From Rickettsiales bacterium (lineage in GTDB: Bacteria; Pseudomonadota; Alphaproteobacteria; UBA8366), in NCBI GenBank assembly GCA_002724555.1, contig PBOZ01000059.1:66414-130413 (forward strand): a stretch of DNA of 64,000 bases, given 5' to 3'. How positions within the stretch are numbered: position 1 is the stretch's first letter; each line of letters opens with the position of its first letter. Made by a program: the position numbers and the translations under genes. Positions 12,438 to 15,400 of the stretch are shown piece after piece. Under the pieces are notes generated by a model. That model saw only the letters and a list, made by a program, of their open reading frames with translations. It searched no databases and was not told where the DNA came from.

Positions 12438-15400
12438 CTATTCCGAGCTTTGGATCTGCGCTGTCATATTGTATAGCCGGTCGCTCATCACCCGCGCAAT
12501 ATGCGCAGCGAAATGCGGACTGCCTTCTAATAGCTCTAGGAACATTTCTTTCTTTAATTCTAAAACAGTGACGTCCGAATGTGCGCGGACTGTCGCAGAA
12601 CGCGGTTTGGTACTTAAGAGAGCCATATCACCTACTAGCTCATTCTGGTCGAGGTGGCTAACGATAATCTCTTCGTCGCCTTCACCGACTATAATATCAA
12701 CGGCACCCTCAAGAATGACATAGGCCGCATTACCAGTGTCACCCTGATGGAAAAGGTCTTCACCCTTTGAATAGGTCAGCCTTTCGCTTGTGAAAGCAAG
12801 TAACTTGAGGCGTGAGGCGTCCATTTCGGTAAAGAGCGGGACTTGGCCCAAGGCGGAAATTTCGGCGTTCAGAAGTGTACCGCCATGTTCATCTTCGACA
12901 TCGACAACATCCACGCTTTCGTCGCTCACATCGAGAGGGGTAGCCTCGGCAATACGTTCTTCGATACGACCATTACGGACGACCAAGACCTGATCAAACT
13001 CGCTAGTATCTGGCATCTCGCTGTCAATCCAAATGAGTGTTGATGTTGGCAGTAAAATGCAGAGTTTTCGCCGTATGCGATCTCGTGTTTCGCGATCATG
13101 AGCGCTTAGCGCTTCGTTGATAACAAGGATCTCTGGACGTTTAATAAGGCTTCGAACCAAGGCGATGCTCTGTCGTGCAGCGAGCGGTATGCGACGTCCG
13201 CCGATGCCGACGTTGAAATCAGCAGCAGTTAGGATGATTTCATCAGTCAATTCCATTTCGTCAAGCACTTCTCGCAATACCGTGTCGACTTTCTCTTCTG
13301 CGTGCGGTCGGCCAGCATTTACCCGTCCCATGACCAAGTTTGAGCGAAGCGGCAGCCGTTCGTTAAACTTTTCAGGGTCGAAGAACGCAATTGCTTCATT
13401 GCTATCGTCTTCGAATTGATCTCGGAATTTCCGTCGTGCTTCCAAAATTTGAGACTGCATCTTGTCGTCTATATGCCCAAGTCGATGTCGTTCGACAACC
13501 AATTGACATGTGAGAGAAATCAACCTTGCGGTATCTTCTTCGTTGAGAACGTCATTACCGTCGCGTTTTGCGAGAGCAACAATGCGTTTTAACTCCTGAA
13601 GTGAATCGTCGTCGACAAAACTGTATTCTTCAAAGATCGGGTCGTCGGCAGACATACCGTCAAACATATCTATAAGGGTTGCCGCGGTATGCATTCCGAT
13701 GTCGCGGAAGCGATTTGTAAGGTCACATTGGTTGAGCACGGAGAGGATTGCTTCGTTCTCAGCTAAATGGTCGATGGCGAATTTGTCGTCGATTGCTTCT
13801 CCAAAAATCAGATTGGCTCCGACCGTTGCGCTTACATTGTATTTTTCAAAGTCGAATGGATGAATGAGGTCAGCCAACTCCGAATCCGACTGCATTTTCT
13901 TTAAAATAGACTGCCGGGCTTGAACAATTTTTGCTGGTAAATCAGCCTTAATGTCCGGATCAATTGTCATATTCATGGCACGGCCATACATGAAATCGTC
14001 GAGTTCCACGGCGCGGAGTGTTTCGTGCCACCAGCTTGATAGCTCATCTTGGTTGGAGACACCGACGTCATCTAAATTTATCCATTCGGCATCTATTGCA
14101 TGTGCAACATTGCCTGAAGAAACCGCTTCTTTTCGATCTGTTATACGCTCTGGCGTGTCATCAGGTGTAATGACAGGCATATGTTTTAGGCCATAGAAAA
14201 CATTGTACCCAATGGTACCGTCGAATACGTACGAATCCGGACCGGCATACCCCACCCGTCGCCCAATGACCGCTTCATGCATACCTGATAGATTCTGGTC
14301 GGCGATGGAAATTCGCCCTTGGGAAGGTTGAATAAGCCGTGTCAGGATATAGGAAAGATTATCTCGGCCACTGCCACCCGCAACAATAGCTATACGGCTG
14401 CCTGGCGCTGCGTCAAAGGAAATACTATCAAGCGACTTGACACCGTCTTCATCTGCAATCGAGACGTTGCTAAGTGAGACATTGCCGGCAAGCGACGGAA
14501 TTGTGTCTGGTCTGCCAGTAATCCCTAAGTCTTCGGGGATCATATCTGCAGGATCGAATTGCTCCATAACCTGCTGATATTTGATTTTTGCATCCATCAT
14601 ACGTTGATAATATTTGAGCAATTCTTTCCAGGGCTGCATCAACTGGCTGTAGGCGCCAAGCACTGCGACCAGCTGGCCGATATCAAGATTGCCCCGCAGG
14701 ATAAGGACGCCGCCAACCGAGTAGAAAAGAAGCGGTGTTAGTTTTAACAGAAAGTTGTTCAGGAACTTTAGGAATGCTTTGCCCTGATAAATTTTCATTC
14801 GAACTTTGAAAATGCCCGAAAGGTGGTGTGTGAAATCTGCGAGTGAGTACGCTGACGTATCATGTGTATGTATATCATTAATACCTGACACGGCTTCGCT
14901 AATACGTCCCGCGACACCTCGGATGCGGACGACCCGCTCTTTTGCGAGCAGGTTAATTTTCTTTTGCAGTTTTGGGATGATGTAGGCTTGCAACGGTATT
15001 ATCGAAATACTGGCAAGGCCCATTATTGGATCTTGTATGAAAACAAATAGCAGCACTGTCAACATCGTGCCACCTTGGAAAAGGGGAAGTTCAACCGCAT
15101 CCGCAAAAAATTGACTGAAAGGTTCTACCTCGGCGGTGATCATCGAAGTGACTTCGCCTTGAGAGGTTTTCTGGAATTGTTTTAGTGGAAACCGGTGAAT
15201 TCGCTCAAACAGTTGAAAGCGTAAACGCCGGAGTAATCGTTCGGAGGTAATCCCTTTAAAGATAAATAGCGACATCGTAATGCCGCCGTTGACGATTAAA
15301 AGTAAAAGAAAGAGAAAACATAGGGTCAATAGGTATTCGGTGTTGTCGAATTCAATGCCGAGGTACGTTCGTGGGAAAGCTTCCCCATCTGATTTCGATC

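What the first reader, a model, noticed from the sequence alone, without database searches (positions are those of the whole stretch)
12945..14492. ABC nucleotide-binding domain with every catalytic motif degenerate and the helical subdomain apparently triplicated
In the 1033-aa protein the NBD-like region (aa ~350-865) departs from the canonical motifs at each position:
- Walker A reads A-G-G-S-G-R-D-N (nt 14358-14381) instead of GxxGxGK[ST], so the lysine is missing.
- The Q-loop position reads Y-A-G-P-D.
- The signature is G-I-G-G-R-R instead of LSGGQ.
- Walker B is I-L-V-I-N-E-A, so Asp is replaced by Asn.
- The H-loop position is L-I-W-I-D-S-E, with no His.

The distance from the Q-loop to the signature is about 340 aa, against roughly 50-60 aa in ordinary ABC NBDs. 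The extra sequence (nt ~13371-14183) looks like iterations of the post-Q-loop segment.

The motif [TS]-[IVL]-x-x-N-[LIV]-x-[FYM]-G occurs three times:
- TIGYNVFYG, about aa 442.
- TVGANLIFG, about aa 572.
- LRSNLVMG, about aa 731.

Each copy is followed by an acidic helical stretch resembling the '...dfI..lp.G.dT' region. Only the last copy runs into the signature-like GIGGRR.

A homodimeric half-transporter built this way should be unable to hydrolyse ATP canonically. That suggests a repurposed NBD used for regulation or scaffolding.
Basis: partly seen in the sequence, partly recalled or inferred. Interest (0 to 1): 0.82.

Follow-up and report, generated by a model that had tools for sequence, protein, structure and literature searches.

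The report
Dead ABC exporter with triplicated subdomain
This gene belongs to a widespread but undescribed alphaproteobacterial family of ABC-exporter-like membrane proteins that have lost the ATP-hydrolysis motifs, carry a triplicated piece of the ATPase domain and a cyclic-nucleotide sensor, and sit beside conserved sugar-transferase genes, so they probably move or control a glycoconjugate without burning ATP in the usual way.

Summary
The 1033-aa ORF (12438-15539, minus strand) is an MsbA-type ABC exporter. Its nucleotide-binding domain is split by about 280 residues between the Q-loop and the signature.

- **Motifs:** A-loop, Walker A, Q-loop, signature, Walker B Asp and H-loop are all non-canonical. 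One correction: LSGGQ aligns to IPLAA (aa 784-788), not GIGGRR, which is the X-loop.
- **Triplication:** it is real. Three ~60-residue units (Q-loop strand, S[IV]xxN[LI]x[FY]G, two helices) align pairwise at 93-98% HHalign probability; no shuffled control came close.
- **Not a pseudogene:** full-length relatives occur in at least 591 species. The insert is conserved and folds confidently.
- **Family-wide degeneracy:** none of 62 diverse insert-bearing relatives keeps a full catalytic set. A few keep a canonical Walker A and Walker B, so the insert came first.
a C-terminal cNMP-binding domain with an intact phosphate-binding cassette, encoded as a separate gene in Sinorhizobium meliloti. Three glycosyltransferase genes are adjacent in about 60-65 of 82-84 loci. 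No partner ABC exporter gene is adjacent anywhere.

Best reading (inferred): a homodimeric, ATP-hydrolysis-deficient, cyclic-nucleotide-regulated translocator or regulator in an uncharacterised glycoconjugate pathway. I found no literature on it. I rate it a new variant of a known kind.

The parts
12438..15539 (-). Whole gene: 1033-aa ABC-exporter-like protein (TMD, split degenerate NBD, cNMP-binding domain)
   Evidence: ORF. Pfam ABC_membrane 93.9 bits, ABC_tran 26.5 bits (N-half only), cNMP_binding 75.5 bits. 100% identical database protein from a marine 'Rickettsiales bacterium' MAG. AF2 model pLDDT 80.6, pTM 0.70. Foldseek matches MsbA, Atm1, TM287/288 and TmrAB.
14520..15539 (-). Type IV ABC exporter transmembrane domain (aa 1-340), the most conserved region of the family
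   Evidence: PF00664 aa 71-303. Six long helices in the AF2 model. Mean identity of distant members 0.53, against 0.31-0.46 for the other domains. Many invariant residues.
14184..14519 (-). N-terminal half of the NBD (aa 341-452): A-loop Y->D363, shortened P-loop, Q-loop Q->P434
   Evidence: HMMER alignment to PDB exporters. Column counts.
14358..14381 (-). Degenerate Walker A 'AGGSGRDN' (aa 387-394): one residue shorter than GxxGxGK[ST], Lys->Arg, Ser/Thr->Asp
   Evidence: The family column is R21/K9 followed by D22/E8 of 32 sequences.
13866..14264 (-). Repeat unit 1 (aa 426-558): the genuine Q-loop strand, TIGYNVFYG, an extra loop of about 36 aa (EA.ASGNS..D...DWIDY), then helices
   Evidence: HHalign against unit 2 93.4% and against unit 3 94.5%. 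AF2 elements E429-432, H443-451, E452-457.
13392..13865 (-). Repeat unit 2 (aa 559-716): strand, TVGANLIFG, helices, plus about 100 aa of further helices; no Pfam family
   Evidence: HHalign against unit 3 98.2%, E 4.4e-14. Folds alone with pLDDT 90.9. No PDB match by profile or by fold.
12945..13391 (-). Repeat unit 3 continuing into the C-terminal half of the NBD (aa 717-865): LRSNLVMG, two helices, X-loop GIGG, signature-equivalent, Walker B, D-loop, H-loop
   Evidence: NCBIfam CydC/CydD/PglK models align to aa 731-869. PDB alignment covers aa 771-862.
13176..13190 (-). Signature-motif equivalent 'IPLAA' (aa 784-788) in place of LSGGQ
   Evidence: HMMER alignment 'riplaarq' against 'aisagekq'. 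The two Gly positions are kept in only 2 and 7 of 62 insert-bearing relatives.
13110..13130 (-). Walker B 'ILVINEA' (aa 804-810): Asp->Asn808, general-base Glu809 retained
   Evidence: N in 30 of 32; E19/D11.
13017..13037 (-). H-loop region 'LIWIDSE' (aa 835-841): His->Ser840
   Evidence: His is present in 5 of 62 clade members.
12441..12854 (-). C-terminal cyclic-nucleotide-binding domain (aa 896-1033) after a poorly conserved, low-confidence linker (aa 866-895)
   Evidence: PF00027 75.5 bits. The phosphate-binding cassette GDMALLSTKPRSATV (aa 970-984, nt 12588-12632) has G970 in 111/111, E/D971, R980 in 79/111 and [TS]A[TS]V. The linker has pLDDT 27-42.
11636..12319 (-). Downstream 227-aa gene on the same strand, a conserved neighbour in the closer relatives; no family match
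   Evidence: 55% identical to the gene at the same position in L002. Present in 11-12 loci, including S. meliloti pSymB. No Pfam or NCBIfam hit.
7955..11624 (+). Three glycosyltransferase genes (GT28-like 7955-9175, GT4/group-1 9185-10441, GT28-like 10398-11624) conserved next to the ABC-like gene
   Evidence: Pfam and NCBIfam. Found within 7 kb in 64-65 of 82 loci at E<=1e-5, and in 58-63 of 84 at E<=1e-10 with at least 60% query coverage.
1062..7076 (+). Opp/Dpp-type ABC importer (fused two-NBD ATPase, family-5 solute-binding protein, two permeases) that travels with the module in several lineages
   Evidence: Pfam. The same set sits beside the ABC-like gene in Azospirillum thermophilum, A. 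soli and S. meliloti pSymB.

Best explanation
Shown: the gene encodes a member of a large, unnamed, mostly alphaproteobacterial clade of type IV (MsbA/ABCB-like) ABC half-transporters.
- An ancient internal triplication of the 'Q-loop strand to X-loop' part of the helical subdomain inserted about 280 folded, conserved residues into the NBD.
- The ATP-site motifs have decayed across the clade.
- In this protein the A-loop, Walker A, Q-loop, signature, Walker B Asp and H-loop are all non-canonical.

Inferred: it acts as a homodimer whose two identical composite sites cannot carry out canonical ATP hydrolysis and probably cannot bind Mg-ATP normally.

Inferred from domain fusion and fission and from an intact phosphate-binding cassette: the conformational state of the NBD/insert module, and through the coupling helices that of the highly conserved TMD, is set by cAMP or cGMP binding to the C-terminal (or separately encoded) cNMP domain.

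Inferred from conserved synteny: it works with the adjacent GT28-like/GT4/GT28-like glycosyltransferases, often also with an Opp-type importer. It is the only exporter-like component of that module. I think it most likely acts as an ATP-hydrolysis-independent, nucleotide-signal-gated flippase or translocator for the glycolipid or glycan those enzymes make. The enlarged helical subdomain would serve as a docking or signalling platform.
For: - **Architecture and fold:**
- **Motif degeneracy conserved in the family:** (32 sequences; 111 sequences).
- **Degeneracy across the whole insert-bearing clade (62 representatives):** A-loop aromatic 0, Walker A Lys 24, Ser/Thr 16, Q-loop Gln 7, signature Gly 2 and 7, Walker B Asp 19, Glu 20, H-loop His 5. 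None keeps K+S/T+D+E+H.
- **Triplication:**, with shuffled controls.
- **Insert under selection and folded:** identity 0.31-0.39 against 0.14 for the linker; pLDDT 84-93 in context and 90.9 alone.
- **Family size:** 621 clusters at 50% identity carry the insert, always at about residues 460-740. At least 591 species have a relative.
- **No second ABC-exporter TMD:** none in the window or in 82 loci.
- **cNMP domain:** Pfam hit, canonical cassette, separate downstream ORF in S. meliloti and in Sneathiella.
- **Glycosyltransferase synteny:** conserved from 34% to 88% identity.
- **TMD:** the most conserved region.
Against: - No biochemical data exist. Loss of ATP binding or hydrolysis is inferred from sequence only.
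- Some positions in the remnant site are conserved rather than drifting: [RK]392-[DE]393, N808, E/D809, the D-loop SAxD, and R789-Q790. That could mean a ligand still binds there.
- A few clade members keep Walker A GxxGxGK[ST] and a D-E Walker B (P0189, P0197, P0249), so the ancestral insert-bearing protein may have been an active ATPase.
- The product of the glycosyltransferases is unknown, and the neighbourhood is absent from some loci (for example L001).
- cNMP-type domains can bind other ligands. HetC's binds ppGpp (PMC10986499).
Confidence: 0.45

Rival explanations
1. Non-transporting signalling or scaffold protein. The ABC-exporter fold serves only as a membrane anchor or sensor. The degenerate NBD, insert and cNMP domain form a cytoplasmic platform that recruits or allosterically controls the neighbouring glycosyltransferases, much as SUR regulates Kir6. 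Nothing is translocated.
For: - All catalytic motifs are lost.
- A large conserved helical surface with no structural relative is available as an interaction platform.
- Some variants carry a further GGDEF domain (P0099).
- The cNMP sensor is present.
Against: - The TMD is the most conserved region and has many invariant polar and charged residues. That is more than an anchor needs.
- No other exporter, such as Wzx, Wzm/Wzt or a synthase, appears in the conserved module.
- No interaction data exist.
Confidence: 0.22
2. Still a working, non-canonical ATP-dependent exporter. The remnant site binds ATP or another nucleotide using Arg/Lys392, Asn808, Glu809 and the D-loop. It either hydrolyses slowly or uses binding alone to drive NBD dimerisation, as at the degenerate sites of CFTR, TM287/288 or TmrAB.
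For: - [RK]392, [DE]393, N808, E/D809, D815, R789 and Q790 are conserved in the close family.
- The general-base Glu and the D-loop are retained.
- Some clade members keep a full Walker A and Walker B.
- Degenerate sites in known exporters still bind ATP tightly (review PMC7756269).
Against: - The P-loop is one residue shorter.
- Ser/Thr is replaced by an acidic residue.
- The A-loop aromatic is absent in 0 of 62.
- The signature glycines are absent.
- The Q-loop Gln and H-loop His are absent.
- In a homodimer both sites carry all of these defects. No characterised exporter works with such a site at both positions (my own knowledge; the review covers only one-site cases).
Confidence: 0.2
3. 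Heterodimer subunit. The protein pairs with a canonical ABC half-transporter encoded elsewhere in the genome, which supplies one active site.
For: - Heterodimeric exporters with one degenerate site are common.
- The rest of this MAG's genome could not be searched.
Against: - No second ABC-exporter TMD occurs in the 64-kb window or within 7 kb in 82 related loci. By general knowledge, heterodimeric bacterial half-transporters are almost always encoded by adjacent genes.
- This protein is degenerate on both faces: Walker A/B/H on one and the signature on the other. Both composite sites of any heterodimer would therefore be impaired.
Confidence: 0.07
4. Pseudogene or assembly artefact.
For: None beyond the unusual motifs.
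Against: - The reading frame is intact at 1033 aa.
- More than 110 full-length homologs exist down to 40% identity.
- The insert is conserved.
- AF2 models are confident.
- The same architecture occurs in cultured Azospirillum, Sneathiella, Nisaea, Thalassospira and Sinorhizobium.
Confidence: 0.01

Closest known systems
Homodimeric type IV ABC exporters and flippases (MsbA, PglK, Atm1, Sav1866)
   Same: - Same TMD-NBD half-transporter layout and fold: NCBIfam MsbA model E 1.3e-48; Foldseek TM-score normalised to target 0.54-0.63.
- Like PglK and MsbA, it is encoded beside glycosyltransferases, which suggests a lipid-linked glycan substrate.
   Different: - All scores lie far below the family cut-offs (165.9 bits against a cut-off of 602 for MsbA).
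- The NBD is split by a 280-aa triplication.
- The A-loop, Walker A, Q-loop, signature, Walker B Asp and H-loop are lost.
- A C-terminal cNMP domain is added.
Heterodimeric exporters with one degenerate site (TM287/288, TmrAB, BmrCD, Rv1273c/72c) and CFTR/ABCC
   Same: Non-canonical substitutions in Walker B, H-loop and signature. The degenerate site takes a structural or regulatory role (review PMC7756269). The top PDB sequence hits are Rv1273c/72c and TM288.
   Different: Those proteins keep one fully active consensus site and still bind ATP at the degenerate one. Here a single gene product carries defects on both faces of the NBD, no partner gene is adjacent, and the P-loop itself is shortened.
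HetC-type PCAT exporters with a cNMP-binding domain
   Same: An ABC exporter fused to a CRP/cNMP-type ligand-binding domain that is required for function (PMC10986499).
   Different: In HetC the domain is N-terminal, binds ppGpp in vitro, and sits on a catalytically active transporter with a C39 peptidase. Here it is C-terminal (or a separate downstream gene), has a canonical cyclic-phosphate-binding cassette, and sits on a degenerate NBD.
SbmA/BacA (SLiPT) transporters (from my own knowledge)
   Same: They use the type IV ABC exporter TMD fold without ATP hydrolysis, showing that the fold can work with another energy source or as a facilitator.
   Different: SbmA/BacA have no NBD at all. This family keeps a folded, conserved, enlarged NBD.
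SMC/Rad50/RecN and UvrA ABC ATPases (from my own knowledge)
   Same: Large insertions at the same topological point of the ABC ATPase fold, between the Q-loop and the signature motif.
   Different: Their insertions are coiled coils or zinc and DNA-binding modules, not repeats of the helical subdomain. They are soluble, active ATPases.

Membership tests
Type IV ABC exporter (ABC_membrane, PF00664; MsbA/ABCB-like) | Six-helix TMD with long intracellular loops matching PF00664 | tested here: met
   PF00664 E 1.8e-26, 93.9 bits against a cut-off of 28. Foldseek hits to MsbA, Atm1, TM287/288 and TmrAB at E about 1e-15.
Type IV ABC exporter (ABC_membrane, PF00664; MsbA/ABCB-like) | NBD fused C-terminally to the TMD, with a RecA-like core and a helical subdomain | tested here: met
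   Exporter profiles align to aa 48-452 and aa 731-869. The AF2 strand and helix order is consistent with this. The NBD is interrupted by 280 aa.
ABC ATPase (PF00005) as a catalytically competent NBD | Walker A GxxGxGK[ST] | tested here: not met
   A-GGSGRDN: one residue shorter, K->R, S/T->D.
ABC ATPase (PF00005) as a catalytically competent NBD | Signature LSGGQ | tested here: not met
   IPLAA at the aligned position. The glycines are kept in 2 and 7 of 62 clade members.
ABC ATPase (PF00005) as a catalytically competent NBD | Walker B hhhhDE | tested here: not met
   ILVINE: Asp->Asn in 30 of 32 sequences; the Glu is kept.
ABC ATPase (PF00005) as a catalytically competent NBD | Q-loop Gln, H-loop His and A-loop aromatic | tested here: not met
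   P434, S840 and D363.
ABC ATPase (PF00005) as a catalytically competent NBD | ATP binding and hydrolysis | not testable with these tools
   Needs purified protein.
MsbA (TIGR02203 equivalog) or any named exporter family | Score above the curated NCBIfam cut-off | tested here: not met
   The best hit is 165.9 bits against a cut-off of 602. All 25 listed families are far below their cut-offs.
Cyclic-nucleotide-binding domain (PF00027) | Profile match above the gathering score | tested here: met
   75.5 bits against a cut-off of 27.5, aa 922-1005.
Cyclic-nucleotide-binding domain (PF00027) | Phosphate-binding cassette G-[ED]-x-A-L-x(4)-P-R-[ST]-A-[ST]-V with the phosphate-contacting Arg | tested here: met
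   GDMALLSTKPRSATV at aa 970-984. G is present in 111/111 and R980 in 79/111. Actual ligand binding was not tested.
Heterodimeric ABC exporter with one degenerate site | Adjacent gene for a second half-transporter with a consensus site | tested here: not met
   No second TMD in the window or in 82 loci with 7-kb flanks.

The most novel reading that the evidence does not exclude
This clade is a new functional class of ABC-fold membrane proteins. ATP hydrolysis has been given up entirely. A cyclic-nucleotide sensor, acting through a triplicated helical-subdomain module, gates an ATP-independent translocation pathway (or controls enzymes) for a still unidentified glycoconjugate that is widespread in Alphaproteobacteria, including rhizobia.
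Probability: 0.3. Interest if true: 0.8.

Novelty: new variant of a known kind. Interest (0 to 1): 0.62.

Why it matters
ABC exporters are defined by ATP-driven NBD dimerisation. The known degenerate sites always come paired with one active site. A large clade in which a single half-transporter gene has lost the motifs on both faces of the NBD would be a natural experiment on what the ABC exporter fold can do without hydrolysis. This clade covers at least 621 clusters at 50% identity and at least 591 species.

Three features make it more than a decayed gene:
- The TMD is kept under strong selection.
- The helical subdomain has been expanded by triplication.
- A cyclic-nucleotide sensor has been recruited.

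The finding also flags an uncharacterised, conserved gene module of three or more glycosyltransferases, often with an Opp-type importer. The module is present in genetically tractable organisms (Sinorhizobium meliloti pSymB, Azospirillum), so the questions can be tested directly. Finally, the insert is a conserved, confidently folded region with no Pfam family and no structural relative.

Tried and rejected
- **First repeat test.** With close homologs only (A1/A2), unit 2 and unit 3 were linked but unit 1 reached only 13-29% probability. A more diverse alignment of 57 representatives settled it.
- **Unit-2 profile against PDB sequences.** No hit at E<=10.
- **Unit-2 model against PDB by Foldseek.** Nothing better than E 1.8 and probability 0.10. 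The fold of the extra units cannot be assigned to any solved structure.
- **Genome scan with the unit-2 alignment.** I used A1 instead.
- **Model coordinates.** They were not exposed, so I could not superpose the three units or locate the insert relative to the dimer interface.
- **Pseudogene or sequencing error.** Rejected.
- **Adjacent partner ABC exporter.** Rejected. The Opp-type ATPase at 1062-2948 belongs to its own importer, and the query's NBD halves found no other tblastn match in the window at E<1.
- **Literature.** Seven full-text searches found nothing on this architecture or on the S. meliloti locus. I did not obtain the S. meliloti locus tag.
- **Other scans.** Rfam, tRNA and promoter/terminator scans of the window or flanks gave nothing relevant.
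- **Glycosyltransferase names.** NCBIfam gave only sub-threshold hits (EpsE-like GT4, MJ1255/VC2487-like), so the product stays unknown.
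Full report
**What is there**

The window carries an intact 1033-aa ORF on the minus strand at 12438-15539.
- Pfam finds an ABC exporter transmembrane domain (aa 71-303, 93.9 bits).
- It finds only the first half of the ABC ATPase profile (aa 370-442, profile positions 1-74 of 137, 26.5 bits).
- It also finds a C-terminal cyclic-nucleotide-binding domain (aa 922-1005, 75.5 bits).
- NCBIfam exporter models (MsbA, TAP, HepA, CydC/D, PglK) match in two separate stretches, about aa 48-452 and aa 731-869. All score far below their family cut-offs.

So the NBD is split by about 280 residues that match no profile.

**Motif registers**

HMMER alignments to solved exporters fix the registers:
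- Walker A is 'VA-GGSGRDNL' against 'VGPTGAGKTTL'. It is one residue shorter, with Lys->Arg392 and Ser/Thr->Asp393.
- The Q-loop Gln is Pro434.
- Walker B is ILVINE, with Asp->Asn808 and Glu809 kept.
- The D-loop SAHD is kept.
- The H-loop His is Ser840.
LSGGQ aligns to IPLAA (aa 784-788), and GIGGRR is the preceding X-loop. The signature is degenerate either way.
- The A-loop aromatic is replaced by Asp363, which is D or E in 106 of 111 family members.

**Not an artefact**

- The protein is identical to a database entry from a marine 'Rickettsiales bacterium' MAG. More than 110 full-length relatives (about 1010-1066 aa) exist down to 40% identity, mostly from Rhodospirillales, Hyphomicrobiales and marine Alphaproteobacteria.
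- The degenerate states are conserved family characters: [RK]392, [DE]393, P434, N808 in 30 of 32, and no His at 840.
- The insert is conserved (0.31-0.39 identity among distant members, against 0.14 for the linker). The TMD is the most conserved region at 0.53.
- AlphaFold2 with the family alignment gives pLDDT 80.6 and pTM 0.70, with 84-93 across the insert. The model matches MsbA, Atm1, TM287/288, TmrAB and Rv1273c/72c.

**The triplication**

- With close homologs only, unit 2 (aa about 559-716) aligned to unit 3 (aa about 717-830) at 92-95% probability. Unit 1 aligned only weakly.
- With 57 diverse representatives, all three pairs are significant: unit1-unit2 93.4% (E 2.4e-7), unit1-unit3 94.5% (E 8.3e-8), unit2-unit3 98.2% (E 4.4e-14). 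The scores are 45-82, against a maximum of 16-21 in 60 column-shuffled controls each.
- The shared core is about 60 residues: a beta-strand equivalent to the Q-loop strand, the motif S/T-[IV]-x-x-N-[LI]-x-[FY]-G, and two helices ending in 'GL...vG', the X-loop position.
- The AF2 secondary structure repeats accordingly: E429-432/H443-451/E452-457, E559-561/H573-578/E580-582, and E717-719/H731-736/E738-740.
- Unit 1 has an extra conserved loop of about 36 residues. Unit 2 has about 100 further helical residues.
- Unit 2 folds confidently on its own (pLDDT 90.9). It has no relative in the PDB by profile or by fold.

**Wider clade**

- A HMMER scan of 1.84 billion representative proteins with the insert alone found 621 clusters (381 at E<=1e-10). 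The insert always lies at about residues 460-740 of long ABC-type proteins.
- There are forms of about 1010-1066 aa with the cNMP domain, forms of about 840-950 aa without it, and a few of 1156-1206 aa with an added GGDEF domain.
- Motif states vary widely. Among 62 representatives: none has an A-loop aromatic, 24 keep the Walker A Lys, 16 the Ser/Thr, 7 the Q-loop Gln, 2 and 7 the two signature Gly, 19 the Walker B Asp, 20 the Glu, and 5 the H-loop His.
- None keeps K+S/T+D+E+H together. Three (P0189, P0197, P0249) keep K+S/T+D+E.
- So the triplication predates the decay. The whole clade looks released from selection for canonical catalysis, while the fold, TMD and insert stay constrained.

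**Sensor domain**

- The cNMP domain has a canonical phosphate-binding cassette: G970 in 111/111, E/D971, R980 in 79/111, and [TS]A[TS]V.
- In S. meliloti the ABC part ends at a stop codon, and the cNMP domain is a separate ORF about 100 nt downstream. Sneathiella shows the same split.
- This fusion and fission pattern supports a functional partnership between the two parts.
- A published precedent for a cNMP-type domain on an ABC exporter is HetC. There it is N-terminal, binds ppGpp, and sits on a catalytically active PCAT (PMC10986499).

**Genomic context**

- No second ABC-exporter TMD is present in the window or within 7 kb in 82 related loci.
- Three glycosyltransferase genes lie within 7 kb in 64-65 of 82 loci at E<=1e-5, and in 58-63 of 84 loci at E<=1e-10 with at least 60% coverage. 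These are GT28-like 7955-9175, GT4 9185-10441 and GT28-like 10398-11624.
- They are usually divergently transcribed directly upstream.
- In Nisaea and Sneathiella the operon also carries a second GT4, a histidine-phosphatase-like gene, a 263-aa gene and a small membrane protein.
- The window's Opp-type importer (1062-7076) travels with the module in Azospirillum thermophilum, A. soli and S. meliloti pSymB. In pSymB the order SBP, permease, permease, GT28a, GT1, GT28b, 227-aa gene, ABC-like gene mirrors the window.
- The glycosyltransferases have no curated equivalog, so the product is unknown.
- Cultured hosts include Azospirillum, Thalassospira, Sneathiella, Nisaea, Inquilinus, Thalassobaculum, Ruegeria, Rhizobium and Sinorhizobium.

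**Interpretation**

Shown:
- An ABC exporter fold.
- A split and triplicated helical subdomain.
- Loss of the catalytic motifs across the family.
- A cNMP domain with an intact cassette.
- A conserved glycosyltransferase neighbourhood.
- No adjacent partner gene.

Inferred:
- The protein is a homodimer with two dead sites, so there is no canonical ATP hydrolysis.
- It is regulated by cAMP or cGMP.
- It has a role in translocating or controlling the glycoconjugate made by the neighbouring enzymes.

I favour a translocator over a pure scaffold, for two reasons. The TMD is the best-conserved part, and this is the only exporter-like gene in the module. The evidence for that preference is indirect.

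Conservation of [RK]392-[DE]393, N808, E809 and the D-loop keeps open a residual ligand-binding role for the old ATP site.

**Novelty**

Seven literature searches found nothing on this architecture or on the S. meliloti locus. The review of degenerate sites treats them as one of two sites in heterodimeric or full-length transporters (PMC7756269). The protein is clearly an ABC exporter relative. It fails the defining catalytic features of an ABC ATPase and has a new NBD architecture. I classify it as a new variant of a known kind.

Noticed in passing
window 1062-11624; L083 313-8016; L084 12213-21042: The Opp/Dpp-type importer (fused two-NBD ATPase, family-5 SBP, two permeases) and the three glycosyltransferase genes form a block. 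The same block sits next to the ABC-like gene in S. meliloti pSymB, Azospirillum thermophilum and A. soli. Its product and substrate are unknown.
   Followed up: partly
window 11636-12319 (-): A 227-aa protein lies directly downstream on the same strand, with no terminator-like site in the 118-nt gap. It has no Pfam or NCBIfam match. It is conserved at the same position in 11-12 loci (55% identity in L002, 40% in S. meliloti). The 'ILGGWYG...FDIDP' stretch resembles a Rossmann-type SAM-binding motif; that is my reading and was not tested.
   Followed up: partly
L083 11560-12280; L026 9677-10147; L071 9675-10136: In Sinorhizobium meliloti and Sneathiella the cNMP-binding domain is a separate ORF just downstream of the ABC-like gene, not a C-terminal fusion.
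   Followed up: yes
P0099, P0174, P0221 (homologs, not in the window): Some family members carry a GGDEF (diguanylate cyclase-type) domain after the cNMP domain. This hints at a link to c-di-GMP signalling.
   Followed up: partly
L022 79-6791; L026 1538-6872: In Nisaea and Sneathiella the divergent operon upstream of the ABC-like gene also encodes a second GT4, a histidine-phosphatase-family protein (about 197 aa), a 263-aa protein and a 177-aa membrane protein. Each recurs in 20-28 of the loci.
   Followed up: partly
window 10398-10441: The listed TTG start of the second GT28-like ORF overlaps the end of the GT4 gene by 44 nt. The true start is probably further downstream.
   Followed up: no
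window aa 247-258 of the ABC-like protein (nt about 14766-14801): Invariant basic residues R247, K254 and K258 lie along one face of the long helix after the second intracellular loop. They could form a phosphate-binding ring for a lipid-linked substrate, as in MsbA or PglK. I could not map them without coordinates.
   Followed up: no
window 16159-19665 (-): A large 1168-aa indolepyruvate/2-oxoacid:ferredoxin oxidoreductase-like gene (TPP_enzyme_C, POR, DUF6537) lies upstream of the ABC-like gene. It is syntenic only in the three closest genomes, so it is probably unrelated.
   Followed up: partly
L017, L028, L030 (record titles); P0117 (eukprot): A few homolog-bearing contigs are labelled Flavobacteriaceae, Mycobacteriaceae or eukaryotic, although the gene looks alphaproteobacterial. 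These are probably mis-binned or contaminant contigs.
   Followed up: no
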